Source: Helicobacteraceae bacterium
Lineage (GTDB): Bacteria; Campylobacterota; Campylobacteria; Campylobacterales; Sulfurimonadaceae
Length of the DNA: 34,407 nt
Reading direction: 5' to 3'
Assembly: GCA_027081565.1 (NCBI GenBank)
Contig: JALWKG010000351.1
Location: 1 to 34,407 of the forward strand
The notes beneath the pieces are model-generated. The model did no database searches, had not been told where the DNA came from, and saw only the letters and a list, made by a program, of their open reading frames with translations. Below, in pieces: positions 1,796 to 34,405 of the stretch (positions are counted from its first letter, which is position 1; each line of letters opens with the position of its first letter). The translations under genes and the position numbers were made by a program.

Positions 1796-1947
1796 TTATT
1801 GTCAGAGTTTTTGTAATACCACCATTGATAGGTATCTTCTGAAGAAACCTTTAGTAAAAACAGTGTATTCTTCAAATATCAAAAACCTCTGAAAAGATCC
1901 GGAATTCTGATCCATTCAGAGAATATAATAATCATAAAAGGGAAAAA

Positions 1948-12344: not shown

Positions 12345-13358
12345 ATGAATACTCAGCCGCAACGTATTGCTATTGTCAAACTCACTGCCTTAGGCGATAT
12401 TATCAATGGTACTGTTGTTGTACAACTTATCAAAAAGCACTATCCTGACGCTGAAATAGAGTGGTTTTGTGAAGAGGCTTTTGCCGGTATCTTAGAGGGG
12501 CATCCTGGGCTTAAAAAGGTTCACGAAGTCCCTATAAAACGGATCAAAAAAGAGAAAGACCTCATACTTTTAAAAGAGACTGTAACTACCCTTAAGTCCT
12601 CTGGACCTTTTGATATGATCATTGATATGCAGGGGCTTATAAAGTCAGCGGTAGTTGCACGTTTTATAGGTAAAAGCGTCCACGGTTTTGACAAGGGTTC
12701 TGCACGAGAGTCTCTTGCTTCACTGCTCTATAAAACCCACTCCAACATCCCTTACACAAACAATGTCATCAAGCGCAATATTGACGTCGTAGCCGATGCA
12801 TTAGACTTTCAAGTAAGCGACCAAGAGATCTTAGAAAAAAAGCCATGTTTTAAGCAACAACCCAAGCCAAATTTCCTTCAAGAAGCTAAACCAAACATTG
12901 CTATGGTCATCGGTGCTTCATGGCCTTCAAAAGAGTACCCCAAAGAGAAGTTTGTTGAACTCTGTTTTGCCTTGGAAGAGGCAGAGTGTCTTCTTATATG
13001 GGGAAGTGCTCGTGAAAAAGAGATGGCAGAGTTTATCGCAGAACGTACGTCCAATGCCACTGTCACTCCAAAACTCTCTCTAAAAGAGCTCACAGCCACC
13101 ATAGAACATTGTGATCTCACCATTGGCAATGATACTGGTCCCACCCATATCGCCTGGGCGATGAACCGCCCCTCTATTACACTTTTTGGACCCACAAACA
13201 CCCGAATGATCTACGAGACACCTATAAACCTGGCCTGTGAATCCAACTCACCTGTTGATATCAGCCACATCAATAAACAGGATTTTTCTATACAAGAGAT
13301 ATCTGTCGAAAGTATTGCCACAAAAGCAAAAAAGCTTTTAAAGCAAAAAGCGTACTAA
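12345..13358 (+). CDS. waaC: Lipopolysaccharide heptosyltransferase I (GT9)
   Basis: IAIVKLTALGDII, DMQGLIKSA, GFDKGSARE, IGNDTGPTHIAWA, LFGPT. Confidence 0.92.
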   Translation: MNTQPQRIAIVKLTALGDIINGTVVVQLIKKHYPDAEIEWFCEEAFAGILEGHPGLKKVHEVPIKRIKKEKDLILLKETVTTLKSSGPFDMIIDMQGLIKSAVVARFIGKSVHGFDKGSARESLASLLYKTHSNIPYTNNVIKRNIDVVADALDFQVSDQEILEKKPCFKQQPKPNFLQEAKPNIAMVIGASWPSKEYPKEKFVELCFALEEAECLLIWGSAREKEMAEFIAERTSNATVTPKLSLKELTATIEHCDLTIGNDTGPTHIAWAMNRPSITLFGPTNTRMIYETPINLACESNSPVDISHINKQDFSIQEISVESIATKAKKLLKQKAY

Positions 13359-14033
13359 AATATAGAGACCACCCATCATAAGTGGTTGATGAAGCAGATA
13401 GATGACTAGGGCATGACGTCCTAAAAATGCTACTTTGTCAGTCACGACATTAGAGACCATCCCCCAACAAAACCATTTTCTATAGCCTATATATATCCCA
13501 ATATAGACAACACCCAACCATGGAAAAAGGTGACCTATGTCCTGTGTTACAGGGGGTAAAGAGAGAAATTCTGCACTCAGATCATATAGCCAGTCCATGT
13601 TAACATTACAACAGAAGTACACGCCAATGATCACTAAGCCCAAGCCCAAAGCAACTCGGGGAACACGCACAAATGCCAACGCAAAAATAGAACTCACAAA
13701 GATCAGGTGAATAATTCCAAAATAGATCCACGCACTTGGGTAAATAAAGTAAGAGACCACACTAATAAGCAGCGCAGCTATAAAAAGTTTAAAAAGTCTC
13801 ATAAGGTTTTTAGGAAAATTCAAACTCTTTTCATTAACAATATAGAGACTGATCCCTACACTCATCATAAACAAAAAGATGATGAAGTCTCTAAAATACT
13901 TCCAAAAAGCTCCATGATAGATGTCTATCTCTATCAGCCGGTAATAGTTAAGATCAAAGCTAAGATGAAAGATCACCATTAAAATAATAGCCATACCCCG
14001 TATAAAGTCTAATTCCAGGTAACGTTTATGCAA
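13338..14033 (-). CDS. DUF1624 / HGSNAT-like membrane acyltransferase-family protein
   Basis: RYLELDFIRGMAIILMVIFH, YFGIIH, LFPW, LGRHALVIYLLHQP; TTG start after AGGA. Confidence 0.85.
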   Translation of the reverse strand: MHKRYLELDFIRGMAIILMVIFHLSFDLNYYRLIEIDIYHGAFWKYFRDFIIFLFMMSVGISLYIVNEKSLNFPKNLMRLFKLFIAALLISVVSYFIYPSAWIYFGIIHLIFVSSIFALAFVRVPRVALGLGLVIIGVYFCCNVNMDWLYDLSAEFLSLPPVTQDIGHLFPWLGVVYIGIYIGYRKWFCWGMVSNVVTDKVAFLGRHALVIYLLHQPLMMGGLYILVRFLL

Positions 14034-14110
14034 GAAGTGTCCTATTGTAGATTGGGTAGATTATATAACGTAAAAGATTATGGCGAATAGTGTCAAAAAA
14101 AGAGATAAAT

Positions 14111-14489
14111 TGGTGGAGGCGTCGGGTGTCGAACCCGAGTCCAAAAATAGCTAGGAAATGGCGTCTACATGTTTAGAAACATTGTTTAGTTTAATCAGCG
14201 TTCACACAATGTGCAAAGCTACCGCTGACGAGCCTCAAAGGTTCATTTTGCGCTGAGACAGACGCAAAATATATCTGCATAGGGGTTATACTTCGAATCC
14301 TGCATATCCAGAGTCAACAGGTGAAGCAGCCCTCCGACCAAAGCCGGGGTTAAAAACTTAAGCTACTGCTAAAGCTGGGCGGTAATTTGTGTTGTTTGCA
14401 TTTAAGCAAGGTGAGCCGCGTAACGGAAATGCTCAGTCCGACATGCAACCAGATCCCGAAACTACTCCTGTCGAAGCCAAGTCGCCCCC
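14111..14489 (-). ncRNA. ssrA: Transfer-messenger RNA; tag peptide ANNTNYRPALAVA* (14399-14358)
   Basis: Minus strand starts GGGGGCGACTTGGCTTCGAC and ends GGGTTCGACACCCGACGCCTCCACCA. The acceptor stem has the G3-U pair and CCA end. The resume codon GCA follows TAAAT and opens an Ala-rich tag. Confidence 0.97.
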
Positions 14490-14523
14490 GAATCTTGTTA
14501 GGTGTTACAAATTACATAAGAGT

Positions 14524-14532
14524 ATTATAACA
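14524..14532 (-). promoter_or_regulatory. Extended -10 promoter for ssrA
   Basis: Minus strand TGTTATAAT about 35 nt upstream of the mature tmRNA 5' end. Confidence 0.7.
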
Positions 14533-14548
14533 TAGCCCTTGTTACTTT

Positions 14549-15481
14549 TTAGTAGAAGGTCAACATAAACCCATAATCACGGTCTTGAAAACGTACCGGT
14601 TCTACTTGATCACTAGAGTAACCGAACTGCGAAAGGTCTTGATAACGATCGAAAGTACTAAATTCTAAGGTCACGTTTAGGTCAAAAGTGTTACTTAAAC
14701 TACTAGCAACATTACCCATAGGGTCTAAAAGGAAATAACTAAAACTACCCAAGCCTTTAGAACCCCAGATAACACCTTGGTTTTTATCTAACATACCTTC
14801 TAATGTATGTAGCCCCTCACCTAAAAATGATCCTAAAAGTGGCGTTACAATAAGGTCTTGTATGGAAGGGATCTCAGCAAATGCCTCATAGCCATACTCC
14901 CAAAAAAATGTTGACATGACAGTTGAGAAGAGTGCAGACTCGAAGATATTCATACCATCATTTCGCGCCATAGTATAGTAAACTGCTCCAGATATAGGGT
15001 GACCAATATAATTGATAGCCCAATCATCTACATCCCATACCGGTTTAGTAGTCACATGCTCCTGCCAACGTTCACCTAAAGATTTTTTTTGTAACTCTTC
15101 TAAGTCCCAGTTTGAGACACTCTCAGGTAAAACCACTAAAATACCAATAGCACTTATCAATACAACTTGTGTATAAGCAGCATCTTCAACTAACGCTCTT
15201 GTCTCTGCTGACATCTGCTCGTTGACATTAATCTTACGCGCAACATAGTCAACATTCAGAGTAGAATCATAAAGATAAACTTTTGTGTATAACAAAGAGG
15301 TCATCCAGTGTTCATAAAGTTTTTGGTTAAGATCCACTTTAGTGTATAAACTGTTATTTTGATCTAACTTAAAAGGCATGACATTGGGAGAGGGAAGTTG
15401 GTGAAGTTTCTCATAAAGAGAAGGCGTTGCCCAAAGCGATGACGCCAAGGTTATAAATAGTATGGAAAACCTAAAGTGCAT
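14549..15481 (-). CDS. DUF3943-domain exported/outer-membrane protein
   Basis: Signal peptide; WDVDDWAINYIGHPISGAVYYTMARNDG, WEYGYEAFAEIPSIQDLIVTPLLGS; C-terminal YGFMLTFY. Confidence 0.8.
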   Translation of the reverse strand: MHFRFSILFITLASSLWATPSLYEKLHQLPSPNVMPFKLDQNNSLYTKVDLNQKLYEHWMTSLLYTKVYLYDSTLNVDYVARKINVNEQMSAETRALVEDAAYTQVVLISAIGILVVLPESVSNWDLEELQKKSLGERWQEHVTTKPVWDVDDWAINYIGHPISGAVYYTMARNDGMNIFESALFSTVMSTFFWEYGYEAFAEIPSIQDLIVTPLLGSFLGEGLHTLEGMLDKNQGVIWGSKGLGSFSYFLLDPMGNVASSLSNTFDLNVTLEFSTFDRYQDLSQFGYSSDQVEPVRFQDRDYGFMLTFY

Positions 15482-23604: not shown

Positions 23605-24066
23605 TTACCTATTATAAAACAGCTCTATGCACTTTTTAAAGTCACTGCAGCGTACACAACGCACAAAACGGCGCTGCTCTTTAGGCAGTGTGTAGCTCGC
23701 TCCATTTCCAAAGTCTACAACCCAGGCATGGGGCGCGTTCCAGGCATAGGTACTCGCCGTCCAGTAGGTGGCATTTTTTTTGTAGTAGACAAAACCTTTT
23801 TGGATCTTTCTGCCTGTTGGACGACTATTATCAATAATAGTTGCCATCTCACTCTCACTCGGCAACCACCAGTCATCAAAACCCGCATAGTCAAGCGACT
23901 CGCAGTTCTCTTTGGCCTCATTCCATGTCAGGATAACCCCACGGTTTTCAGCCACGTCTTGCCACATAAAAGCGGTCTTGGGGTCAGTTAAGGTCCGTGC
24001 ATTGAGATCTGTAAGCAGTACCAGAAGTACTAAAACAGTCCAAGGCAACGCTCTAAAACTTAGCAC
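23605..24066 (-). CDS. DUF1566 (Lcl C-terminal-like) exported protein
   Basis: Signal-like N-terminus; TDPKTAFMWQ, TWNEAKENC, GFDDWWLPS..E, YWTAS, AWVVDF..G, FVRCVR. Overlaps the receptor stop codon; exact start uncertain. Confidence 0.85.
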   Translation of the reverse strand: MLSFRALPWTVLVLLVLLTDLNARTLTDPKTAFMWQDVAENRGVILTWNEAKENCESLDYAGFDDWWLPSESEMATIIDNSRPTGRKIQKGFVYYKKNATYWTASTYAWNAPHAWVVDFGNGASYTLPKEQRRFVRCVRCSDFKKCIELFYNR

Positions 24067-27000
24067 TTATAGATGCCGAATATGAACGGCCAGTTTTATA
24101 CTTTAAGGTCACATTGTCACCCTGCTTCCAAAGTGTCTCATCGTTGAGTATGTTTTTGATCTTAAAGGTAAAAGCCATCTTGCTGTTCAGTGCATCGACC
24201 TTAAACTGCTCGATCCATGTAAAGTCCAACAGGTTTGGCGGTACTTCATAATCATCTAAAGCGTAGACCACTGTCCCATTTTTCAAAGCAACACGCATAA
24301 GACGCTCAGACATTTTGTTAAACGAGAGGTTCAAGGTTCTGTCTTCACTCTCTTCATAACTCAATGAGAGGTTAAGAACCTGTGGTGAAAGCCCCTGCAG
24401 TCCACGATTTTGTGTGACATACTTGCTCTTTTGCTCCTCTGATAGTTGCACTTGGGACGCAATGTAAGTGTAGTTTCCAGAGAAGACCATGTGGTAAAAA
24501 AAGCTGTGTAAAAAGCCCAAATTTTTATACCAACCTATCTCTATACCCGCCAGGTCTGCCGACTTCGAGTTCTCAAACGAGTAGCGCGGCAGGGTTCCTG
24601 TTGTAAACTCCTGAGTATCTTCTATGGGGTTGGCCATATGTTTGTAAAATGTCGAGAAGTTGACACTGTCTGTTGGCGAAAAGAAGAAGTCATAACGCAG
24701 ATCCACACTCTGCACATCCGTCTCAATCAGGTCCGGATTACCAGAGACCTTGGCTAAAAAAACAGGGTGTATAAACTCAGCATCCACAAACTCTCTAAAG
24801 TCCGGGTAAACAAAGGTCTCACCATAAGCAAACTTTAGCTGGTTGGCATCATTGATAGCATACTTGGCACCAATACTTGGCAGAAACTTCTGAAAAGCCA
24901 GGGTGTTGGTCTCAGTGGTTACGATGTTGCGCTCAACTGCATACTGGTCCACACTCTGACTCAAGTCCACATAACGACCACCATAAGTGATATCAACACC
25001 CTCTAGTGGCTTTAAAAGACCCTTTAGATAGAGGGCATTTCTGCTTAATGAAGCATCAAACTGATCTTTTGGCTTAGAGGTGACATCATAGGTAAGATCG
25101 GTTCCATTTCCATAGTTCAAGATATCGTTCATAGAACCTGTACTGATCGCAGGGTCAGTGATCTTGCTCTGAACCGTCAACTCCAGACGTCTACCCTCAC
25201 GCTCTTTAAGCTCTGAGACCAGACCGAGTTCAATATAATCTTCATCACTGAAAAAAGAGATCATCGAACGATTTTTCAGCGTCAGGTTGAAAAGATCGTC
25301 CTTTGTCGTTCTGCTGTTATAAGTCAGACGAGACTGTCGTGCCTGAAACTCGTAAGGCTTGGAAGCATCCAGACGGGTATAGTCATAGTAGATGTCATTA
25401 GGCACATACTCACTGGCTGTTGCATACTCAAAACCTACATCAAAACGGTTTTTAACACCAAGGTCATAATCAACACCTCCATAAAACTGGTTTGTCCACA
25501 ACTCACGCTCTTGCCACTCAAAATAGTTTTGTAACTCATCTGAGTTGTTCTCTCCAAAGGTACCTGAGACCGAACGGGTCTGGTCGAGTGTGTTTAGAAC
25601 ATATAACATGGTGTAACCCATGTCAAGATTACGATACTTATAATTTAGGTTCAAAAGCCCGCCATGTTGGTAGTTTGTCTTAAACTGGTCTGTCACCGCA
25701 GTGTTGTCAGGCGTGCTCTCTTGAACACCATCTTTTGATGTCAGGTAGTCATGAGAGGTATAACTAACAAGCTTGGACTCTTTTTTATAACCATAAGAGC
25801 CCAAAACACTCACTTTATGATCATTATTGATCGTCCAGCTTTTAGAGACTTCCAACTGTGCCTCACCACCCATGGGGACTTTCTCTGCATAATTGTTGGC
25901 GTCACGCTCTTGCAACATCGACTGCATCTGTTGTGGTGTCTCTTTGAGTGAAGGTTTTCTCTCACCAATCACAACATCCTGTGAAGCAACAAAGGCCTCG
26001 TTAAAAGGTCTGTACGAGCTGTCATACCCGGTCCAGTCACTGGGAGCACCCTTATAACTGTAGACTTCATCTCCATACGAGTCATGGGCATTGAGTCCCA
26101 GTTTCAGTTTGACATAGTCCTCATCGGAGCTCTTTTTGGTACGGATGTTGACATAACCACCACCAAAGGCACCCGTAATATCCGGGGTAAAACTCTTTTG
26201 TACCTGAAGAGTGCCTATAACACCACTAGGGAACATGTCCAACGGGACCGTTCTTTTTGTCGGGTTTGGAGAGGGCAGAGACATGCCATTGAGCTCTGTA
26301 GCCGAGTAGCGATCACCCAGTCCACGAACATAGATATATTTTCCACCCATAATAGTCACACCTGCAACACGTTTGAGTGCACTCGCAGCATTGGAGTCAC
26401 CCTGTTTGGACATCTGCTCAGCACCAATAATACTTGCAATAGAGTCACTGTTACGCTCTTCTGCCATCACTGCAGCTACACTACCCTCGACCTGAGGGGC
26501 AAGTACCACAAACTCTTCGAGTTCCATTGCTGCCGGTGTCAACTCAACAGACTTCATCACTGTCTCATCTTTGAGGACATTGACCTTTATGGTCTGCGCA
26601 CTAAAACTGCTATGGATGATAGAGAGGGTCTGCTCTCCTACCGGAGCTTCGATAATGACATGGCCCTGCTTGTCACTTTTGACATCAACATTCAAGCCTT
26701 TGACAAAGACACGTGCCCCCTCTATCGCCGCATCGTTTTCGGCTGAACGCAGGGTAAGTTGTACAAAACCTTCTGCAGCGATCGCTTTAGTGACATTGTG
26801 CTCTACACTGGCACTTTTAGGTGCCTCTTCATCTTCAAAAGCAAGGGTATTGTCTTCTTTTAACATGATGATAAGTTGGGACTCTTTGCCTTTTTTGATC
26901 ACAAAGTTTTTTCGAACGAAAGCCTGAGGTTTCCCTGCACTTTTGGTCACTACCTGCATCTGGTAACTTCCAACCGGTAAGACCGTATAGAGCGCACCAT

Positions 27001-27196
27001 CGCTGTCGGTCTGAAACTCTGCGTGTTTGTTGTATGAACCGGGGTTGTCTATACGTACTGCATCACTCTTTTTAAAGATGATGACTTTTTGTTGGGCTAA
27101 AGGCTTGCCCTCTTTCATGATGATCAGTGAAAACTCACCGGTGTCGATCGCTAACAATGACGTTGCAAAAGCGATTAGTAGCAGTAAGGTTCTCAC
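24053..27196 (-). CDS. TonB-dependent receptor with long N-terminal extension (carboxypeptidase-regulatory-like domains)
   Basis: Signal peptide; LEEFVV TonB-box-like segment; plug motif YVRGLGDRY...LNG..LPSPNP..R.VPLDMFP...VQKSFTPD..G.FGGG.VNI; GNPDL, KNILN; terminal Phe (ISAKF); GTG start after GGGAG. Confidence 0.93.
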   Translation of the reverse strand: MRTLLLLIAFATSLLAIDTGEFSLIIMKEGKPLAQQKVIIFKKSDAVRIDNPGSYNKHAEFQTDSDGALYTVLPVGSYQMQVVTKSAGKPQAFVRKNFVIKKGKESQLIIMLKEDNTLAFEDEEAPKSASVEHNVTKAIAAEGFVQLTLRSAENDAAIEGARVFVKGLNVDVKSDKQGHVIIEAPVGEQTLSIIHSSFSAQTIKVNVLKDETVMKSVELTPAAMELEEFVVLAPQVEGSVAAVMAEERNSDSIASIIGAEQMSKQGDSNAASALKRVAGVTIMGGKYIYVRGLGDRYSATELNGMSLPSPNPTKRTVPLDMFPSGVIGTLQVQKSFTPDITGAFGGGYVNIRTKKSSDEDYVKLKLGLNAHDSYGDEVYSYKGAPSDWTGYDSSYRPFNEAFVASQDVVIGERKPSLKETPQQMQSMLQERDANNYAEKVPMGGEAQLEVSKSWTINNDHKVSVLGSYGYKKESKLVSYTSHDYLTSKDGVQESTPDNTAVTDQFKTNYQHGGLLNLNYKYRNLDMGYTMLYVLNTLDQTRSVSGTFGENNSDELQNYFEWQERELWTNQFYGGVDYDLGVKNRFDVGFEYATASEYVPNDIYYDYTRLDASKPYEFQARQSRLTYNSRTTKDDLFNLTLKNRSMISFFSDEDYIELGLVSELKEREGRRLELTVQSKITDPAISTGSMNDILNYGNGTDLTYDVTSKPKDQFDASLSRNALYLKGLLKPLEGVDITYGGRYVDLSQSVDQYAVERNIVTTETNTLAFQKFLPSIGAKYAINDANQLKFAYGETFVYPDFREFVDAEFIHPVFLAKVSGNPDLIETDVQSVDLRYDFFFSPTDSVNFSTFYKHMANPIEDTQEFTTGTLPRYSFENSKSADLAGIEIGWYKNLGFLHSFFYHMVFSGNYTYIASQVQLSEEQKSKYVTQNRGLQGLSPQVLNLSLSYEESEDRTLNLSFNKMSERLMRVALKNGTVVYALDDYEVPPNLLDFTWIEQFKVDALNSKMAFTFKIKNILNDETLWKQGDNVTLKYKTGRSYSASISAKF

Positions 27197-28338
27197 AGTT
27201 CACACTCCCATATATTGTTTTGGCATTTTTCCATGTTTTTACGTAACTCGGTCGCCTTCTCAAACAGGTCTGGACGGCTCAAGGCTTGAAGTTCACGTTC
27301 ACTCTTTTCAAAATCCGAGGTCATATAGTAGGCATAAGCCAATGCATAACGGATGTTTTCATCTTCCAGCAGTCCTGAACGCTTCAAGGCACTCGCTGTT
27401 GCGACCACTCTCTCATACTCCCCAAACTCCAGATAAATAGCAATACGCTGTTTGTACTTCTCTTTGGTGTCGGTCAGCTGTGCATTTTTGTAAAGTGCAA
27501 GGGTAAACTCTCTCGCACGTCGCAGCATCTCTGCCGCCTCTTTTGTGTACTTGGGATCTTCTATAGAAGCCTCATCAAAAAGGTTCGCTGCGGCATGGAT
27601 CATCTCCTGATCCAGGTAGAGGTGGGCCAACATCACTGTCATCTCAGCACTTTCTGGAAACTGTAGGTTCCCGGTCTCTGCCAGCTTGGTCGCTTTAAGT
27701 GTCGCTCCGCTTTTACGAAGGGCACCGACAAAAGAGAGATAGGTCTTGGCATTGGGTTTTTCATGGGCCAAGTAAACCTCAGCATCTTCTAAAGCACTCT
27801 GGTAAAGTTCCAAGGCTATGAAGTAGTTAAAACGCTGCTTGTAGGCAGGGTAGTACTCTGGAAATTTTTGGTTGATCAAGGCCAGTGTCTCTAAGGCCAT
27901 ACTCTGTTTGTCCAGCTTCCAGTAAGACTCCGCTTTAAGTGCCAAAAGCTGTGGTTTGGCGGTTGAGAGTTCACCTGCTTTCTCCAAGGCATCGATGGTC
28001 CCCTGGTAGTCACGGAGCTTGAAATTGTTCTGTGCAATATAGAGGTAGATACTTGCATCTGTCTGCCCTGCTTCTATCGCCTTGTGAAACTGCTCGTTCG
28101 CCACCTTGAAAAGCTGCTGTTTAGTAAAGATAAGCCCTTTTAGGGTGTAGAACATCACAAAGTCGAACTCCTCTTTAGTGGTGTCTGCTTCGTTGAGTGT
28201 CTCTGCCGCACGAGCGTAGTGACCATCTTTCATCAAGAGTGCTGCGAGCGCCACGTGGTCGATCTCATCACTGCTTTTTTTCTCTGCTGCAAAGAGGCTT
28301 AGTTGTAAAAGTGTCAATAGTATAAAAAATATTTTCAT
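27193..28338 (-). CDS. Exported TPR-repeat protein of the TonB cassette (start placed at ATG 28338; the ORF track starts at 28362)
   Basis: Signal peptide MKIFFILLTLLQLSLFA; helical TPR-like repeats; follows tonB. Confidence 0.8.
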   Translation of the reverse strand: MKIFFILLTLLQLSLFAAEKKSSDEIDHVALAALLMKDGHYARAAETLNEADTTKEEFDFVMFYTLKGLIFTKQQLFKVANEQFHKAIEAGQTDASIYLYIAQNNFKLRDYQGTIDALEKAGELSTAKPQLLALKAESYWKLDKQSMALETLALINQKFPEYYPAYKQRFNYFIALELYQSALEDAEVYLAHEKPNAKTYLSFVGALRKSGATLKATKLAETGNLQFPESAEMTVMLAHLYLDQEMIHAAANLFDEASIEDPKYTKEAAEMLRRAREFTLALYKNAQLTDTKEKYKQRIAIYLEFGEYERVVATASALKRSGLLEDENIRYALAYAYYMTSDFEKSERELQALSRPDLFEKATELRKNMEKCQNNIWECEL

Positions 28339-28348
28339 TATGCTTCTC

Positions 28349-28984
28349 TTATTGGAGATCAAATCTGATCTTCTGTTTGGCCCAGACTTTGACGTTTTGA
28401 CCCTTGTACTGTGCCGGGGTAAAGACCCAACTTCTCACACCTGCTTTTGCCACATCATCAAATACACCCGCAGGTTCTGACTGAAGGACTTTGACCTTCT
28501 CGACCTGACCACTTTTGTTGATGAGTAAGTTCATCAAAACAAAGCCTGTTACACCATTTTTACGTGCTGACTTTGGGTACTCCATAGCGGAACGCTGCGC
28601 CGGTTTGGGCTTAACATCGACCGAGTCGCCTGTCATCACCACATCTTTGCCCACATCACCCAGCAAGTTATCGTCCATCCCCATGTCGTCACTTGCAAAA
28701 GCATCCAGACCCGTGTCGATACCACTTAGAGACGAGCTCATGTTGGGTGTCGGCGCGGAACGTCTCTTTTGCGCTTTTTTGCGCTTTGGCTTCGGTTTTG
28801 GCTTCGGTTTTGGCTTGGGCTTGACCATCTTCTGGATCTCGAAGTTGGCACTGCTCGCCTTTTTCTTGGTCTCATGCACTCCGCCCGCCTCATTCATCAT
28901 GATGACGGTGCCAAAGACAAAGACCACACCAAAGATCATCCAGAGAAAAGACTTGATGTAGAGGCTCAGTGTTGGTTTACGCAC
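28349..28984 (-). CDS. tonB: Energy transducer TonB
   Basis: N-terminal TM, (KP)n tract, YPKSARKNGVTGFV...INKSGQV...SEP...FD..A...VRSW.F.PA. Confidence 0.93.
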   Translation of the reverse strand: MRKPTLSLYIKSFLWMIFGVVFVFGTVIMMNEAGGVHETKKKASSANFEIQKMVKPKPKPKPKPKPKRKKAQKRRSAPTPNMSSSLSGIDTGLDAFASDDMGMDDNLLGDVGKDVVMTGDSVDVKPKPAQRSAMEYPKSARKNGVTGFVLMNLLINKSGQVEKVKVLQSEPAGVFDDVAKAGVRSWVFTPAQYKGQNVKVWAKQKIRFDLQ

Positions 28985-28985
28985 C

Positions 28986-29390
28986 CTAGCCGACCTCTTT
29001 TTTAGTCGCTACCGCAACATCACTCGCACCCGAAAGACGACACTGATCGACCACATCTATGAGTTTGTCCACAGAGATGGTGTCATCCGTGATGACCAGT
29101 ACCGACTTCTCAGTCGCAGCACGCAGCATCTCACGAAGTTTTCCCTGGATCGCCCAGGTCTTTACCGGCTGACCATCTACATAGGTCTCACCGGTGTTGT
29201 CGATGTAGACACGGATCACCTTCGAAGATGTACGAGAAGCAGAAGATGCTCCTGGACGTTCAAGGTCGAGTTTCATATCTTTGGTAAAGGTCGAACTCAC
29301 CATAAAAAAGATCAACAATATAAACACCATGTCGATCAGTGGTGACATATCGACATCGCTGACATGCTCTTTTTTTCTTCTAAACTTCAT
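28986..29390 (-). CDS. exbD: Biopolymer transporter ExbD (start placed at ATG 29390)
   Basis: DMSPLIDMVFILLIFFMVSSTF with the essential TM Asp; AAGGA RBS before 29390. Confidence 0.93.
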   Translation of the reverse strand: MKFRRKKEHVSDVDMSPLIDMVFILLIFFMVSSTFTKDMKLDLERPGASSASRTSSKVIRVYIDNTGETYVDGQPVKTWAIQGKLREMLRAATEKSVLVITDDTISVDKLIDVVDQCRLSGASDVAVATKKEVG

Positions 29391-29997
29391 GATCTTCCTT
29401 TGTCTCTTTGACACATAATATATCTTTGATCTGTTCCAACTCTAACTCCATCACATGGCTTCTACGATCGAGCAGACGTCCGATGATGACTCCGGGGACC
29501 GCTACGACCAGACCCAGTTGCGTGGTGAAAAGTGCCTGAGAGATACCCCCTGCGATACCCCCACTCTGAGAGAAGAGTGAGGCTGATGCCAGAGAGTCAA
29601 AAGTCTCTATCATCCCCACTACTGTTCCCAAAAGTCCGATAAGCGGTGCAATAGCCACGAGGGTCATCACCATCTTGGAGTATTTTCTGATCGCCACTTC
29701 ATACTCATAGAACTTGTCATCGATAAGCTTACGCGCCATCTTGCTGCGACCAAACTCGTTGACGATTGCCATAGCATCCTGGATGGCACTGTCGATCAGA
29801 CCCGCTACCTTGGTACGTTTATGTTCGTCATACTTTCTGATGAGCGTACGCACACTCTTTTTCGAGCCACGCTTGAGGGTATGGAACCGAAACCCCAGTC
29901 CAAACCACAAAAACATCGCAGCGAAAAAGAGCGGCCACATCACAAAGCCGCCGCTGTGCATGTACTCCAGAAAGCCTTCTATATAGACGCCTATCAT
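29380..29997 (-). CDS. exbB: MotA/TolQ/ExbB proton channel protein
   Basis: GGFVMWPL, APLIGLLGTVVGMIETF, AGGISQALFTTQLGLVVAVP. Confidence 0.92.
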   Translation of the reverse strand: MIGVYIEGFLEYMHSGGFVMWPLFFAAMFLWFGLGFRFHTLKRGSKKSVRTLIRKYDEHKRTKVAGLIDSAIQDAMAIVNEFGRSKMARKLIDDKFYEYEVAIRKYSKMVMTLVAIAPLIGLLGTVVGMIETFDSLASASLFSQSGGIAGGISQALFTTQLGLVVAVPGVIIGRLLDRRSHVMELELEQIKDILCVKETKEDHEV

Positions 29998-31310
29998 TAT
30001 TTGGTCTTGTTGTACTCGTTAATGACGTGAAGTGCTGAGTGCTCCATCGCATCTTTAATCTTCTCTGCCCAGGCGCTTAACATGTTTCCGACAAGCAACA
30101 TCGGGATGGCGACGATAAGACCCAGCTCCGTTGTCACAAGTGCGATAGAGATACCCCCTGAAAGCAGTTTCGGATCACCCGTACCAAACTCCGTGATGAT
30201 GTCAAAAGTCGCGATCATTCCCGTTACCGTTCCAAGTAGTCCTAGAAGAGGCGCCACGGCAGCGATCACCATGATGGCAGAACCAAAACGGTCTAGTCTG
30301 CTGCTCTCATGCATGATCGACTCCATGACCACATCTTCAACATGCTCACGTTCTGCATCGAGGTTACGTACAGTTGCTTTAAGTACACGCGCCGTTGCCC
30401 CTTTTTTATCTTTCAAAAAGGCAAGCGTTTTCTCTTGTCCACCCTCTTTAAGTTGAACAATGGTTGCTTTGGCCAGAGGTCCAGTTGCAGAACCGGCACC
30501 CATTAAGAAGATGGATCTCAAAAGTGCCAGTAGCAGACCAAAAAGACCAAGACCGATGATCACCCAACCAATGATCCCACCTGAGTCGATGACCGAGTAG
30601 ATCGTCTTCTCTGTTTTATCTTCGATCTCTTTGATGCTGTTTTCAAAAATAAATATGTGTAAAGTCTCTGGCATCTTGCCCTCAGCTAAAGCTTTTGCTG
30701 TTTCAACTGCTGCTGGCTCATCATAAAGTTTGAACTTGTTCTCGCCTGCCGGGACCAAAGCACCTGCATTTTGACCATCTACACCAAAACGTGCGATGTT
30801 TCCGACTTTGACCACCGTACCCAGTTTCTCTGTTCCATCGTTAAGATAAAAAGGTGCCTTGGTCACTTCAATGGTGGAAAGTCTTTGAATCAATGCATTA
30901 GAGGTGCTGAAGATCGTTTTTAAAGCTTCCTGATAATGATCTTTATCAGCTTCAATATTGATACCGTAAGGCTTGAGTGAAGAGTGCGCCTGCAGCACTA
31001 CCGCTTCGACCATAGAGACATCATCACTGACGTTTTGTGCGTTTTGCTGCGCGACATAAAGTGCATCGTTAAGACGCTCGCTCTGTGCCTGACGTGCAAG
31101 TACCTTGTTCTGAAGTGCAATAAGTTCAGACCTGGTCGCTTTGAGCTTTTGGGCATTTTCAGACTTCACACGCTCCAAACGGCTGGTCAACATCTTCTTT
31201 TGTGCCTTCATAAAAGCAAACTCTTTGGCGTATGCACGCTCCAGTTGTGTATCCGTCGCTCCAAAAAGTGTTGCAGAAAGCAGCATTAAAGCGAGTAGTA
31301 ACTTTTTCAT
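29997..31310 (-). CDS. ttpC: TtpC-like large ExbB-family protein (periplasmic coiled coil plus C-terminal MotA/ExbB channel)
   Basis: Signal peptide, long coiled coil, GGIIGWVII, APLLGLLGTVTGMIATFDIITEFGTGDPKLLSGGISIALVTTELGL; 437 aa; lies between DUF3450 and exbB. Confidence 0.8.
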   Translation of the reverse strand: MKKLLLALMLLSATLFGATDTQLERAYAKEFAFMKAQKKMLTSRLERVKSENAQKLKATRSELIALQNKVLARQAQSERLNDALYVAQQNAQNVSDDVSMVEAVVLQAHSSLKPYGINIEADKDHYQEALKTIFSTSNALIQRLSTIEVTKAPFYLNDGTEKLGTVVKVGNIARFGVDGQNAGALVPAGENKFKLYDEPAAVETAKALAEGKMPETLHIFIFENSIKEIEDKTEKTIYSVIDSGGIIGWVIIGLGLFGLLLALLRSIFLMGAGSATGPLAKATIVQLKEGGQEKTLAFLKDKKGATARVLKATVRNLDAEREHVEDVVMESIMHESSRLDRFGSAIMVIAAVAPLLGLLGTVTGMIATFDIITEFGTGDPKLLSGGISIALVTTELGLIVAIPMLLVGNMLSAWAEKIKDAMEHSALHVINEYNKTK

Positions 31311-32068
31311 TATTTCACCTCCGTAACAACAAGAGCATTAGGCAGTGTGAAGTACCCTGTTCTGATCTGCTTTTTAAAGGCATCGAAGATCGAAGCGATC
31401 TGAACCTTTTCATCTTTGGAAAGGACCTCTTTGTAGTTCCAGCCATTGTCATCTTTGACCACATAACCCATCTCGTCGTTAGGTGTCTTGAAGAACATCA
31501 TCATCGTTCCCACACGCGCCACTTCAGCAAGGCGGTCTTGACCATTAAGGTTGATGGTCTGCTTGAAGATGCCGTTCTCTTTACTCATGCGGATCGCGTC
31601 ACCGTAAGCGTTCCATGTCAGCGCCAGACCTTTTTGTGCGGTCACCTCATCGTTTTGAACCTGCTTTTGGATGCGGTGAATATCAGCGATACGGTCTTCT
31701 GTTTTAAAAGGGATCTGTCTCTGAATGGTTTTTTCAAGTGTCGCCAGAGCTTCAAGTACGATCGGCTTCAGACCGACAGAGTTCTTACCCGCCTCTTTCA
31801 CCTCTTTTTTGACCTTGGCCATCTCTACCTGCAGCTGTTTGATGCGCAACTCTTCTCTGGCGATAATAGACTCAAGATCGTTTTTCTGCATACGAAGTGA
31901 TTTCATCTCACCTTTGTAGCTGTCTTTTTCGTCAGCGATAGCGCTGTCAAGCTGCTCGACCTCGGCACGTAACTTCATCAACGATTCCGCCATGTTGTCA
32001 CTGCTCGCCATCAAAGACGTACCCGCGATCAACACACTCAAAGCAATATTTCGTATTTTTGTAGACAT
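31310..32068 (-). CDS. DUF3450-family exported coiled-coil protein (TonB-system accessory)
   Basis: Signal peptide, coiled coil, IPFKTEDRI, RVG..MMFF, W......, TLP; first gene of the ttpC-exbB-exbD-tonB cassette. Confidence 0.8.
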   Translation of the reverse strand: MSTKIRNIALSVLIAGTSLMASSDNMAESLMKLRAEVEQLDSAIADEKDSYKGEMKSLRMQKNDLESIIAREELRIKQLQVEMAKVKKEVKEAGKNSVGLKPIVLEALATLEKTIQRQIPFKTEDRIADIHRIQKQVQNDEVTAQKGLALTWNAYGDAIRMSKENGIFKQTINLNGQDRLAEVARVGTMMMFFKTPNDEMGYVVKDDNGWNYKEVLSKDEKVQIASIFDAFKKQIRTGYFTLPNALVVTEVK

Positions 32069-32119
32069 GGATTCCCCATCAGCCTCTCAAGTGAGAGGCC
32101 TATAATTTAAGATGGTGAA

Positions 32120-32176
32120 ATAATAGAGTCGAGGGGTTACGCATACGTTACTTATGTGTAACATTTTGGTTACACA
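32120..32176 (-). promoter_or_regulatory. Candidate OmpR/PhoB-family (Pho-box-like) operator array and -10 element of the TonB operon
   Basis: GTTAC at 32136, GTTAC at 32147, GTAAC at 32158 and GTTAC at 32169 give an exact 11-bp period. A minus-strand TATTAT (32125-32120) lies 10 nt past the last repeat. Confidence 0.6.
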
Positions 32177-32456
32177 AAGAGTTTTCAGCGTGTAAAGATA
32201 GGTGTAAAGCCCTAATACAGGCTTCTGTTATGGTTTCGCAATGGTTACAAAGATTATTCAAAACGCTCTACTTACAATTCGGAAAGATAAAACTAACAAC
32301 ACCACGGACATTTACAACAAATCAGGAAAACAAAAACAGGATGATTATCTTCAAAGTAAAGTGTAAATTGCCTCAGTTGAAAGTGCTTGAACCATTATGG
32401 ATAAAAAGAAGATAGATGAAGTGGTAAAATTGTTTTTAAAGTAACAAGGAGACAAC

Positions 32457-33305
32457 TTACTCTATATTTGTAACCGCTAACTTCTCATTTTTATCTGTCC
32501 ACTTTGAGCCCTGTTTCTTTCGCATAAATGTTTCTACCTTTCGTGTCCAAAAGACATTTTTCATCATTGTGTATATGTTTTTTGGTTTTCTAGGTAGTGC
32601 GCGAAGAGCCATAGAGTAACCCATCTCTTCATACTCTATATAGTGCCACCACCCTGGCGGGATGTAAAGAACGTCACCATGGTGCAAGGTGGTCTCGTAG
32701 CCATTTAGATGTTTTAATGCAGGATACTTCTCATAATCTGGCACCCTATAGTCTATGTCATAAAGGCTGGAGAAGGAGTAAGGCACATGGTACATAAAAG
32801 GGGTTTGGTCAGGGGCAAAGAGCATCACTTTTTTCTTGCCCCCAAAATGGCACAAAAAGATGTCAGCACAGTCTATGTCAAAATGCATCTGTACCTTAGC
32901 ACCTTTTCCACCAAAAAACATGGTGGGGAGTTTTTTAAAGAACTTAAGGCCTATCTCTGGAAATTCAAAGTCATGTTGTAACTCAGGGATCTCTTTTAAA
33001 ATCTCAAAAAAGAACATCCGAAGGTCATTTTCTCCTGAGCGAAGTAAGTCAAAATACTTCTTGATCTTCATGCTAGTCTGCTCACCATAAAGCATTGTTT
33101 TGTCACGTGAGGAGTTGGTTCCATAGAGTTTGACCTCTTTTTCTCCCGCCAAACGCTCAAAATACTCAAGAGACCACAACTTCGTCGCACGCCAACCTTG
33201 AGTAATATCTTTCATCACTACAGGAAGTTCATCTCGTTTGTAGTTTTTCATAAAAGTCTCTTGCGTTGTCTTCTCTAGTACGTCAACGGCAGTTAAAGAA
33301 ATCAT
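32457..33305 (-). CDS. Cupin-like/JmjC-domain Fe(II)/2-oxoglutarate dioxygenase
   Basis: PVVMKD...W.A.KLWS.EYF, MHFD (HxD), GKKKVMLF, LHHGDVLYIPPGWWH (distal His); AGGAGAG RBS. Confidence 0.9.
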   Translation of the reverse strand: MISLTAVDVLEKTTQETFMKNYKRDELPVVMKDITQGWRATKLWSLEYFERLAGEKEVKLYGTNSSRDKTMLYGEQTSMKIKKYFDLLRSGENDLRMFFFEILKEIPELQHDFEFPEIGLKFFKKLPTMFFGGKGAKVQMHFDIDCADIFLCHFGGKKKVMLFAPDQTPFMYHVPYSFSSLYDIDYRVPDYEKYPALKHLNGYETTLHHGDVLYIPPGWWHYIEYEEMGYSMALRALPRKPKNIYTMMKNVFWTRKVETFMRKKQGSKWTDKNEKLAVTNIE

Positions 33306-33324
33306 ACACTCTCCTGAAGGTGGT

Positions 33325-33333
33325 ATTATAGCA
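33325..33333 (-). promoter_or_regulatory. Extended -10 promoter for the JmjC gene
   Basis: Minus-strand TGCTATAAT 19 nt before the ATG, with the RBS in between. Confidence 0.65.
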
Positions 33334-33451
33334 CCATATACGTTTTGCTATAAACTCCTTCTCAAGGAGACCAAGAGTTACTTGGATTAAAGGATGAATT
33401 TCAAGAGTGTCAAAGCAGCGCTTTCAGGCAACTGCTCAGTTTAAAAAGTGA

Positions 33452-34405
33452 TTAGAACAGTGTTAAGATGTCTGCTGCACCGCTACCTGATGCTGTTGCT
33501 GGCGCTGGATCAGAAGTTACGTTTGTAAAAGAGATATCACGGAACTGTGCCGGTGTAAATGCGGTTTTAGTTTTAAAAGTCACATCACCTGCTGCGAATT
33601 TGATCGTGCCATCTACAAACTTAGGTGCTGTTGTATCATCTTTGATATAGATACCACCATCGTCTGTTCCCGCCTCTTTAACGATACTGAAGTTTGTGAT
33701 CGTTGGTGATGTCATAGGTGTATCTCCACCGCTAGAGATCTCAAAACCTGAGTGTGCACCGGCAGAGGTCATGTTAACAGTGATGTCTGTTGCCGTACCT
33801 ACATAACCGTAGTCAAGGTCAAAACCATCATCATTACAGTTTGTCATTTCGATACGTGACACATTAACTGTTCCACCCCAGATCTCAACACAATCGTCAG
33901 AAGAGTTAATAACTTCTACATCTTCTATAACTGTACCAGAACCAACACCTGCAAGGGAAAGACCATTGATCTCAAGGTCCGTAGAGACCTGCTTTCCGGA
34001 ATTCAAGATCTTAACGTGTTTGATCACACCACTGTTATCAGCAGCATTTGTTCCGCCAAATGCGAAGTCATCATCAGACTCATCCACTTCGTAGTGTACA
34101 TCTGTATGGTTTGTTGGTGCATTTCCAAGAAGAGTAAGTCCACCCCACTGAGCGATCTCACCTTTACTCTGGTCATCTTTAGCGATGTCTGAAGTAAAGA
34201 TAATCGGTTCTGCTGCAGTTCCCTCAGCCATGATCTTAGAACCTTTGGTAACAACGATGTAGTTTGCACCCTCTTTACCATAAACTGTAGTGCCCGCTTC
34301 GACCGTCAATGTTGCACCATCTTTGATCTTGACAAGACCATCGATCTCCCACTGTGTTCCCTTAGTCAATGTTACGTCAGAAGTACAATCCCCACTAAGT
34401 ACTGT
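33452..34405 (-). CDS. Acidic parallel beta-helix surface/exported protein, 5'-truncated by the window edge
   Basis: The frame is open to the edge (TVLSGDCTSDVTLTKG...). Motifs: GATLTVEAGTTV, GSKIMAEGTAAEPIIFTS, QWGGL.LLGNA, FGG.NAADNSG, EINGLSLAGVGSGT, DDCVEIWGGTVN, DDGFDLD.GY.G. Confidence 0.85.
   Translation of the reverse strand, partial: TVLSGDCTSDVTLTKGTQWEIDGLVKIKDGATLTVEAGTTVYGKEGANYIVVTKGSKIMAEGTAAEPIIFTSDIAKDDQSKGEIAQWGGLTLLGNAPTNHTDVHYEVDESDDDFAFGGTNAADNSGVIKHVKILNSGKQVSTDLEINGLSLAGVGSGTVIEDVEVINSSDDCVEIWGGTVNVSRIEMTNCNDDGFDLDYGYVGTATDITVNMTSAGAHSGFEISSGGDTPMTSPTITNFSIVKEAGTDDGGIYIKDDTTAPKFVDGTIKFAAGDVTFKTKTAFTPAQFRDISFTNVTSDPAPATASGSGAADILTLF

What the first reader, a model, noticed from the sequence alone, without database searches (positions are those of the whole stretch)
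23605..34405. Candidate phosphate-starvation outer-membrane scavenging system: beta-helix surface protein + TtpC-type TonB motor + dedicated receptor + DUF1566
Seen: eight overlapping or near-abutting minus-strand genes (DUF3450, ttpC-like, exbB, exbD, tonB, TPR, 1047-aa receptor, DUF1566) sit behind a phased repeat array, with a co-oriented acidic beta-helix gene upstream. Known: DUF3450-ttpC-exbB-exbD-tonB-TPR is the layout of the Vibrio TonB2/TonB3 systems. As I recall, proteins with the GSKI.A.GT...PIIFTS / WGG / DNSG / DD.E.GG motifs resemble Caulobacter ElpS, a phosphate-starvation lipoprotein encoded next to a TonB-dependent receptor. Inference: this is a self-contained, non-iron import machine, possibly for organophosphate, nucleic-acid or mineral phosphorus. 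I do not know of such a system being characterised in Campylobacterota.
Basis: partly seen in the sequence, partly recalled or inferred. Interest (0 to 1): 0.8.

Follow-up and report, generated by a model that had tools for sequence, protein, structure and literature searches.

The report
Phosphate-starvation importer with swappable lid-receptor pair
This is a self-powered outer-membrane import system of a known but unsolved kind, likely switched on by phosphate starvation, whose surface lipoprotein is predicted to cap the channel and appears to have been exchanged together with that channel between related bacteria while the motor genes between them stayed put.

Summary
The eight-gene TtpB-TtpC-ExbB-ExbD-TonB-TPR-receptor-DUF1566 operon is real. 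The phased array is an 11-bp repeat (TGTAAC-N6-GTTACA). It has 5 exact copies in the genome (0.15 expected): three at this locus, one before pstS, one before phoU-phoBR; pit has a one-mismatch copy. The lipoprotein is homologous to a Caulobacter protein in the ElpS position (E 1e-37), so the core is the ElpS/FII/BT4056 lipoprotein-plus-receptor pair, already shown to be phosphate-induced in other phyla. Earlier notes of this scan found the same system on other DNA. Added here: across 20 cassettes lipoprotein identity tracks the receptor (partial r 0.75), not the motor between them (-0.08), and a lipoprotein-on-barrel model scores 0.68 against 0.01 for the best control. The substrate is unknown. 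No PhoX, PhoA, PhoD, phytase-like or 5'-nucleotidase gene was found in this 90%-complete genome. No expression data were available.

The parts
33452..34405 (-). ElpS/FII/BT4056-type right-handed beta-helix lipoprotein, predicted lid of the receptor; 3' 317 codons only, start and lipobox on contig C197 (L001 3-365 minus)
32457..33305 (-). Cupin_8/JmjC gene, likely a passenger inserted into a variable slot; has its own extended -10-like site at 33325-33354
32228..32249 (-). two weaker 11-bp repeat units (upstream Pho-box-like site)
32131..32174 (-). four 11-bp phased repeat units including the exact TGTAAC-N6-GTTACA box at 32157-32174; inferred Pho box
31310..32068 (-). DUF3450 (TtpB-like)
   Evidence: (TtpB2 is DUF3450)
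29997..31310 (-). TtpC-like: long N-terminal region plus C-terminal MotA/TolQ/ExbB domain
29380..29997 (-). ExbB
28986..29414 (-). ExbD (most relatives are 134 aa, so the true start is likely 8 codons later)
28349..28984 (-). TonB
27193..28362 (-). TPR protein (TtpD-like)
24053..27196 (-). TonB-dependent receptor, 1047 aa: CarboxypepD_reg-like N-terminal domain, plug, barrel
23605..24066 (-). Lcl_C/DUF1566 protein, accessory (12 of the 20 loci; rare outside the family)

Best explanation
The locus encodes an outer-membrane receptor, a surface beta-helix lipoprotein predicted to sit on it as a lid, and a six-protein TtpB/TtpC/ExbB/ExbD/TonB/TtpD-type motor, all likely switched on by PhoB-type regulators under phosphate starvation to import a probably phosphorus-bearing anion. 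Steps: (1) Under low phosphate, PhoB and/or the neighbouring PhoB paralogue would bind the 11-bp repeats before the lipoprotein gene and before the motor-receptor operon. The shared motif is shown; binding and induction are inferred. (2) The lipoprotein would dock on the receptor's outer loops (predicted), with its conserved Asp/Glu stack near the barrel mouth. That stack would hold divalent cations that bridge an anionic, phosphate-bearing substrate (inferred by analogy to other beta-helix proteins). (3) The private motor would pull the plug, passing substrate to the periplasm for PstSCAB/PiT (established TonB mechanism, inferred here). (4) Lid and barrel are the matched specificity pair and are exchanged together between lineages, while the motor follows the host. 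The sequence pattern is shown; the selective cause is inferred.
For: Regulation. The motif was drawn from the three sites at this locus. The two other exact copies in 2.26 Mb lie before pstS and phoU-phoB-phoR, and a one-mismatch copy lies before pit (5 exact copies, 0.15 expected; other spacer lengths 0-2). The box has at most 1 mismatch upstream of DUF3450 in 18 of 35 loci, against 0 of 35 upstream of ttpC, 0 of 29 upstream of the receptor and 2 of 1500 random windows. All 11 genus genomes searched carry 2-5 exact copies, with 0 in the reversed control. The divergent regulator is 63% identical to PhoB and has the same predicted recognition-helix stretch. Neighbourhood. pst, phoU, pit, phoB, phoX or phytase-like/choice-of-anchor-I genes flank the cassette in G024, G021, G020, G004, G009, G259, G303, G279, G309 and G324. 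Family. Profile match to the Caulobacter sp. BE264 lipoprotein that precedes receptor-gspD-gspE-gspF: 99.95%, E 1e-37. 72 of 75 named distant loci hold a homologue of this receptor. Homologues are phosphate-induced (PMC2996285; PMC8115612). Pairing. Partial Mantel r is 0.75 for receptor-lipoprotein given the motor (p 0.0002) and -0.08 for motor-lipoprotein given the receptor, over 20 cassettes. The receptor and lipoprotein trees share their main clades and differ from the motor tree. Complex score 0.68, best of 3 controls 0.01; the mark was reached by 116 of 157 solved and 2 of 215 mismatched pairs; contacts agree at least 88%; partner pLDDT at least 87.
Against: There are no expression, binding or transport data for this organism. 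No PhoX, PhoA, PhoD, phytase-like, choice-of-anchor-I or 5'-nucleotidase match was found in G000 (89.8% complete). G010 and G011 (99-100% complete, cassette present) also gave no PhoX, PhoA or choice-of-anchor-I match, which weakens a simple import-then-dephosphorylate model. The exact box is not universal: 12 of 35 DUF3450 upstream regions have 3 or more mismatches. Deleting elpS left phosphatase activity unchanged, and its receptor gene was reported as constitutive (PMC2996285). Standalone beta-helix paralogues without receptor or motor exist (G230, G151, G075, G060), and G089 and G103 have lipoprotein plus motor but no adjacent receptor. Structural matches are generic beta-helices (best Z 21.9, 11% identity) and give no substrate. 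The genomes are kin, so counts and the Mantel p overstate independence.
Confidence: 0.62

Rival explanations
1. Same Pho-controlled lid-receptor-motor machine, but the cargo is a metal or metal-mineral complex (Ca, Mg, Fe, or phosphate bound to them), for example to supply phosphatase cofactors or to strip phosphate from mineral surfaces.
For: The conserved surface is acidic: D192 79/79, D193 78/79, D196 79/79, E222 79/79, with no Lys, Arg, His or Tyr reaching 85%. ElpS overproduction raised phosphatase activity although ElpS had none itself (PMC2996285 passages). Several carriers gave no match to the phosphatase families searched.
Against: Several divergent lid-barrel types exchanged as pairs suit chemically varied organic substrates better than one ion. 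Genomes with no PhoX match would have little use for a cofactor-supply system.
Confidence: 0.15
2. The lipoprotein is itself an enzyme: an Asp/Glu-only beta-helix hydrolase that cuts a phosphate-bearing polymer at the barrel mouth, with the products imported by the receptor.
For: The best fold matches are polysaccharide-cleaving beta-helices. Stacked acids on successive coils resemble cation sites of PL9/PsAly-type lyases (PMC6627557, PMC6796002 passages; by spacing only, no residue-level superposition was made). A phytase-like gene sits between lipoprotein and motor in G004 and G009.
Against: There is no invariant basic residue of the kind lyases use. Refolded or immunoprecipitated ElpS showed no activity on pNPP (PMC2996285). 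The fold matches are 8-15% identical and generic.
Confidence: 0.13
3. The system is not an importer but a phosphate-starvation surface apparatus (adhesion, sensing or export) that uses the motor for force.
For: The function of Vibrio TonB3, a six-protein motor with its own receptor, is unknown and not iron-related (PMC6957404, PMC10734418 passages). ElpS is released to the medium through a T2SS-dependent step. Lcl_C weakly matches adhesin models.
Against: The receptor has an intact plug and barrel, and the lipoprotein is predicted to dock on the barrel like a lid, as proposed for BT4056 (bioRxiv 2023.03.17.533168).
Confidence: 0.06
4. An ordinary iron- or cobalamin-uptake TonB2 system.
For: Vibrio TonB2 has the same six-gene layout and transports siderophores (PMC6957404). 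Some database names for receptor homologues say 'involved in Fe transport' (automatic names).
Against: The promoter motif is shared with pstS, phoU and pit. No solved receptor matched the barrel by sequence; the only two profile hits, one of them RagA, cover the N-terminal domain. Flavobacterium homologues were induced by phosphate depletion only (PMC8115612).
Confidence: 0.04

Closest known systems
ElpS (CC0170) with receptor CC0171, Caulobacter crescentus (PMC2996285: abstract, part 1 of 6 and passages seen)
   Same: Lipoprotein plus TonB-dependent receptor, phosphate-starvation link. Both proteins are homologous to the syntenic pair in Caulobacter sp. BE264 (lipoprotein E 1e-37 by profile, receptor E 4e-45).
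   Different: No T2SS cluster seen between or directly after the two genes here. Instead a private six-protein motor separates them and an orphan PhoB paralogue lies upstream. CC0170 itself was not fetched; the BE264 protein is a proxy.
FII (Fjoh_0546) with TBDT Fjoh_0545, PUSIV, Flavobacterium johnsoniae (PMC8115612: passages and part of Table 1 seen)
   Same: Pectin-lyase-fold lipoprotein beside a receptor with Plug and CarboxypepD_reg-like domains, next to phoB, induced by phosphate depletion.
   Different: Adjacent genes, no dedicated motor described. The Fjoh sequences were not compared directly; the link runs through the paper's stated homology to ElpS.
BT4056 putative lid with BT4055, Bacteroides thetaiotaomicron (bioRxiv 10.1101/2023.03.17.533168: passages seen)
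   Same: Proposed lid role; pair conserved in 621 genera; homologous to Fjoh_0546 and ElpS according to the paper.
   Different: That model had few high-confidence contacts, whereas here the model passes with 88-110 contacts. No paired exchange across an intervening motor was seen in the passages read.
TonB2/TonB3 systems (TtpB-TtpC-ExbB-ExbD-TonB-TtpD) of Vibrio vulnificus and Teredinibacter (PMC6957404, PMC10734418: passages seen)
   Same: Same six genes in the same order; like TonB3, it carries its own receptor and shows no sign of iron control.
   Different: The receptor is downstream, not first. It sits behind Pho-type boxes. It is a divergent DUF3450 subtype (E 1e-29, against 1e-69 to 1e-76 for another type in four relatives). 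Orthology to Vibrio TonB3 was not tested.

Membership tests
ElpS/FII/BT4056 lipoprotein-receptor pair | Lipoprotein homologous to ElpS | tested here: met
   hhalign 99.95%, E 1e-37, 35% identity over 240 columns to the Caulobacter sp. BE264 protein in the ElpS position; a proxy, not CC0170 itself
ElpS/FII/BT4056 lipoprotein-receptor pair | N-terminal lipoprotein signal | tested here: met
   C197 start reads hydrophobic stretch then TG-C (read by eye); similar starts in most relatives
ElpS/FII/BT4056 lipoprotein-receptor pair | Right-handed beta-helix (pectin-lyase-like) fold | tested here: met
   AlphaFold2 pLDDT 96.7; all 50 listed matches are beta-helix proteins, best Z 21.9, rmsd 3.4 over 260 residues
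ElpS/FII/BT4056 lipoprotein-receptor pair | Linked cognate TonB-dependent receptor of the same subfamily | tested here: met
   the window receptor matches the neighbouring receptor in 72 of 75 distant loci and in the Caulobacter locus; here it is linked across the motor genes rather than adjacent
ElpS/FII/BT4056 lipoprotein-receptor pair | Induced by phosphate starvation | not testable with these tools
   no RNA holder listed; only the promoter motif supports it
ElpS locus in the strict Caulobacter sense | T2SS gene cluster directly after the receptor | tested here: not met
   DUF1566, hemN and an Fe-S protein gene follow the receptor
TonB2/TonB3 six-protein motor | ttpB(DUF3450)-ttpC-exbB-exbD-tonB-ttpD(TPR) in this order | tested here: met
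TonB2 (iron-transporting) | Fur control and siderophore transport | tested here: inconclusive
   best match to a recalled E. coli Fur consensus has 7-8 mismatches of 19, but the whole genome has no site better than 4 mismatches, so the test is weak
Pho regulon | 11-bp direct-repeat box shared with pstS and phoBR promoters | tested here: met
   box architecture as described in PMC4415409
Pho regulon | PhoB binding and PhoB-dependent expression | not testable with these tools
   needs EMSA or ChIP and mutants
PL9/PL31-like beta-helix lyases | Cation site plus invariant basic catalytic residue | tested here: inconclusive
   acidic stack conserved, no Lys/Arg/His/Tyr at 85%; no residue-level superposition available; no sequence match to PDB

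The most novel reading that the evidence does not exclude
The lid and barrel form an interchangeable specificity module with at least four divergent types. Campylobacterota swap it as a matched pair by recombination on both sides of a retained motor, each type capturing a different phosphorus compound through a cation-bridged acidic groove. Natural variants would then let cognate versus non-cognate pairings reveal the unknown substrates of the ElpS family, and possibly the purpose of TonB3-type motors.
Probability: 0.35. Interest if true: 0.75.

Novelty: new variant of a known kind. Interest (0 to 1): 0.5.

Why it matters
The ElpS/FII/BT4056 pair is reported in hundreds of genera and is among the most abundant phosphate-starvation exoproteins of Flavobacterium, yet its cargo is unknown. 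This locus offers a compact, self-powered version with a definable operator, a confident lid-barrel model that names residues to mutate, and natural allele pairs on a nearly constant motor. That makes the substrate question directly testable. It also gives a non-iron role for a TtpBCD-type motor, whose TonB3 form has no known function, and a candidate Pho box for this family of Campylobacterota.

Tried and rejected
Repeat finders did not report the array, because its units are short and degenerate; it was found by eye and by pattern scans. PDB sequence searches: nothing for the receptor alone, only two N-terminal-domain hits with its profile, nothing meaningful for the lipoprotein. Foldseek gave only weak generic beta-helix matches. 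The protein Atlas gave no answer for the lipoprotein. No RNA holder was listed; this is no evidence on expression. The Fur-box scan was uninformative. JmjC as a system component was rejected: it is absent from all other fetched loci, found in 2 of 16 genus genomes with this query, and sits at an unrelated place in G001. DUF1566 as a core part was rejected as patchy. A recalled likeness to the PL9 calcium site could not be tested at residue level. G309 was dropped from the trees and from the final Mantel test because its lipoprotein is partial and fused (21 rows, r 0.76; 20 rows). Loci lacking any one of the eight proteins at near full length were also left out of that test. PMC12505986 and PMC2536512 (passages) gave nothing specific. 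Look-ups of earlier findings by place and by 'swap' words returned nothing.
Full report
Observation. The window is the whole of contig C351 of a 2.26-Mb, 89.8% complete assembly. Named homologues of its proteins come from Campylobacterota; the closest named receptors are labelled Sulfurimonas sp. and Thiovulaceae (68-70% identity). The eight genes are present and tightly coupled. The beta-helix ORF runs off the contig; contig C197 overlaps the window end and supplies a start with a lipoprotein-type signal, plus a divergent OmpR-family regulator.

The repeat array is a likely Pho box. Upstream of DUF3450 there are four units 11 bp apart (32174 to 32141) and two more at 32249 and 32238. I took the pattern TGTAAC-N6-GTTACA from this site and the two sites on C197, then scanned the genome. 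It has 5 exact copies (0.15 expected from hexamer frequencies; spacers 0-15 other than 6 gave 0-2). The two copies not used to define it lie before pstS and before phoU-phoB-phoR. Of 6 one-mismatch sites, 4 are inside ORFs, one lies before pit and one before an unrelated gene. In relatives the best match has at most 1 mismatch upstream of DUF3450 in 18 of 35 loci (at most 2 in 23) and upstream of the lipoprotein in 8 of 31 (at most 2 in 16). Controls: 0 of 35 for ttpC, 0 of 29 for the receptor, 2 of 1500 random windows. All 11 genus genomes carry 2-5 exact copies with none in the reversed control; across the family only 33 of 151 genomes have an exact copy, and distant loci show degenerate direct repeats. 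An 11-nt repeat is the described Pho-box architecture (PMC4415409, passages). The divergent regulator is 63% identical to the PhoB beside phoU and phoR and shares its predicted recognition-helix stretch, so both would read the same box (inference).

Neighbourhood. DUF3450 passes its cut-off in 24 of 61 genomes and the lipoprotein profile matches in 24 of 301 genomes of the order. Of 20 loci fetched, 12 show the lipoprotein gene and 16 the receptor. In 5 more the contig ends there and the lipoprotein's 5' part lies on another contig behind the same regulator; G030 has it 10 kb away beside the receptor. G023 and G017 show none. Of 20 loci (13 genomes) carry the motor and 11 the receptor; others are standalone paralogues. 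Phosphate genes flank the cassette in ten genomes. JmjC occurs in no other fetched locus and in 2 of 16 genus genomes, at an unrelated place in G001, so it is likely a passenger.

Family. The lipoprotein has more than 5000 homologues, and all 120 listed carry PF28492, a family not in the local Pfam copy. It folds as a right-handed beta-helix (pLDDT 96.7) with only generic structural matches. A profile of 77 homologues matches the Caulobacter sp. BE264 lipoprotein that precedes receptor-gspD-gspE-gspF, the ElpS arrangement, at 99.95%, E 1e-37. CC0170 itself was not fetched. Of 75 named loci (ranked by similarity to a Sphingomonas member, so biased to Alphaproteobacteria), 72 contain a homologue of the window's receptor and none matched TtpC at E 1e-10. 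A Pseudoalteromonas replicon has motor, lipoprotein and receptor together. In print: ElpS is made under phosphate starvation and has no phosphatase activity itself (PMC2996285). Fjoh_0546 and Fjoh_0545 lie in a phoBR cluster and are induced by phosphate depletion (PMC8115612). BT4056 is proposed as a lid and pairs with its transporter in 621 genera (bioRxiv 2023.03.17.533168). I saw passages of these papers, not their supplements; the ElpS supplements are .doc files, bioRxiv supplements are closed, and I did not open Fig. S7 of the Flavobacterium paper, any of which may bear on family membership. Searches listed no title or abstract start describing this system in Campylobacterota; the library lacks most subscription papers.

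Paired exchange of lid and receptor. Over 20 complete cassettes, lipoprotein identity follows receptor identity after removing the motor signal (partial r 0.75, p 0.0002), but not motor identity after removing the receptor (r -0.08), although the six motor genes lie between them in 19 of the 20 (21 rows gave 0.76). The lipoprotein's nearest neighbour equals the receptor's in 15 of 20 cases and the motor's in 6. Examples as motor/receptor/lipoprotein identity: G000-G001 92/31/37, G024-G251 72/33/33, G285-G120 95/59/51, and G000-G020 49/63/64. The receptor and lipoprotein trees share well-supported clades that cut across the motor tree (the motor tree is FastTree only, and no formal incongruence test was run). 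DNA breakpoints agree. G015 is 93.6% identical to C197 up to the first codons of the lipoprotein and then has a 41%-identical allele. G285 and G120 share the receptor's first 200 residues at 90-98% but diverge in the barrel. An alternative route to the same pattern is whole-cassette import followed by homogenisation of the motor; either way lid and barrel stay matched.

Predicted complex. Barrel residues 352-1047 with lipoprotein residues 1-300 scored 0.68, best of three controls 0.01. The mark was reached by 116 of 157 solved and 2 of 215 mismatched pairs (these counts hold only roughly with my own alignments); runs agree in at least 88% of contacts and partner pLDDT is at least 87. This supports binding but does not show it, and the plug was left out for size. 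Interface residues 141-144, 169, 176, 191 and 199 flank the conserved acids E145, D170, D171, E174, D192, D193, D196 and D198, which suggests that this face looks toward the barrel mouth (inference; I had no coordinates). In 79 non-Campylobacterota homologues D192, D196 and E222 are invariant and D193 nearly so. D170, D171 and E174 were demanded by the search pattern for 75 of the rows, so their conservation there is circular. No basic residue reaches 85%. Cation binding on this face is typical of beta-helix lyases (PMC6796002, PMC6627557, passages), so a cation-bridged anion site is the simplest reading.

Against. There are no expression or transport data. G000 gave no match to PhoX, PhoA, PhoD, phytase-like, choice-of-anchor-I or 5'-nucleotidase families; three partial PF01663 hits and five metallophosphoesterases exist. 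PhoX matched 8 of 15 genus relatives but not the near-complete carriers G010 and G011. The cargo could therefore be inorganic, metal-bound or polymeric phosphate, or a metal. The Fur test was weak.

Verdict. It works like the ElpS/FII/BT4056 lid-receptor pair, meets the tested sequence criteria of that family through a Caulobacter proxy, and is powered by a TonB2/TonB3-type motor. Earlier unverified notes of this scan reported the same system in other genomes, including a sulfur oxidiser; one of them gave me the BT4056 lead. What is added here is the paired lid-receptor exchange around a retained motor and a well-scoring complex model. New variant of a known kind; interest 0.5.

Noticed in passing
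L001 640-1314 (+) (G000:C197): Orphan OmpR-type regulator, 63% identical to the PhoB on C19, with the same predicted recognition-helix stretch; divergent from the lipoprotein gene, two exact boxes in between; 83-96% conserved in the genus.
   Followed up: partly
L162 2436-3701, L164, L165, L166, L167, L168, L169: A second, about 423-aa beta-helix paralogue lies beyond the hybrid histidine kinase in these seven genus loci (also seen in G010). It was not found in the G000 assembly, whose contig ends within the kinase.
   Followed up: partly
L040 13500-16568; L041 2-2077; L165 9611-10392: In G004 and G009 a phytase-like plus choice-of-anchor-I protein occupies the slot between lipoprotein and motor where G000 has JmjC.
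   Followed up: partly
L171 3365-8961 and L037 5890-10774 (G030:C106): Lipoprotein and receptor are adjacent and the motor lies about 10 kb away; receptor and motor each have an exact box.
   Followed up: partly
L158 1051-2406 (G309): The C-terminal half of the beta-helix is in frame with DUF3450; a real fusion or an assembly error.
   Followed up: no
L149 and L150 (G089:C25): The lipoprotein-motor region appears twice in inverted orientation, without a detected TPR or receptor, followed by a caspase-domain plus Lcl_C protein; may be an assembly artefact.
   Followed up: no
L058-L061 (G028, G017, G051, G036): A second DUF3450 motor type with much stronger Pfam scores; in G036 it is divergent from a PhoX-like gene.
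   Followed up: no
L063 2072-12941 (Pseudoalteromonas sp. CF6-2): The same parts in a gammaproteobacterium, in the order motor, lipoprotein, receptor, with a similar 11-bp repeat before the lipoprotein; the motor is only distantly related to the window's.
   Followed up: partly
L182 104-1180 (-) (G000:C202): Metallophosphoesterase with a twin-arginine-like N-terminus, a candidate periplasmic phosphoesterase; no box with at most 1 mismatch on that contig.
   Followed up: no
window 215-3501: Two tandem Sel1/TPR repeat proteins (526 and 517 aa) before serS.
   Followed up: no
window 13338-15481: An HGSNAT_cat protein and a DUF3943 protein among housekeeping genes.
   Followed up: no
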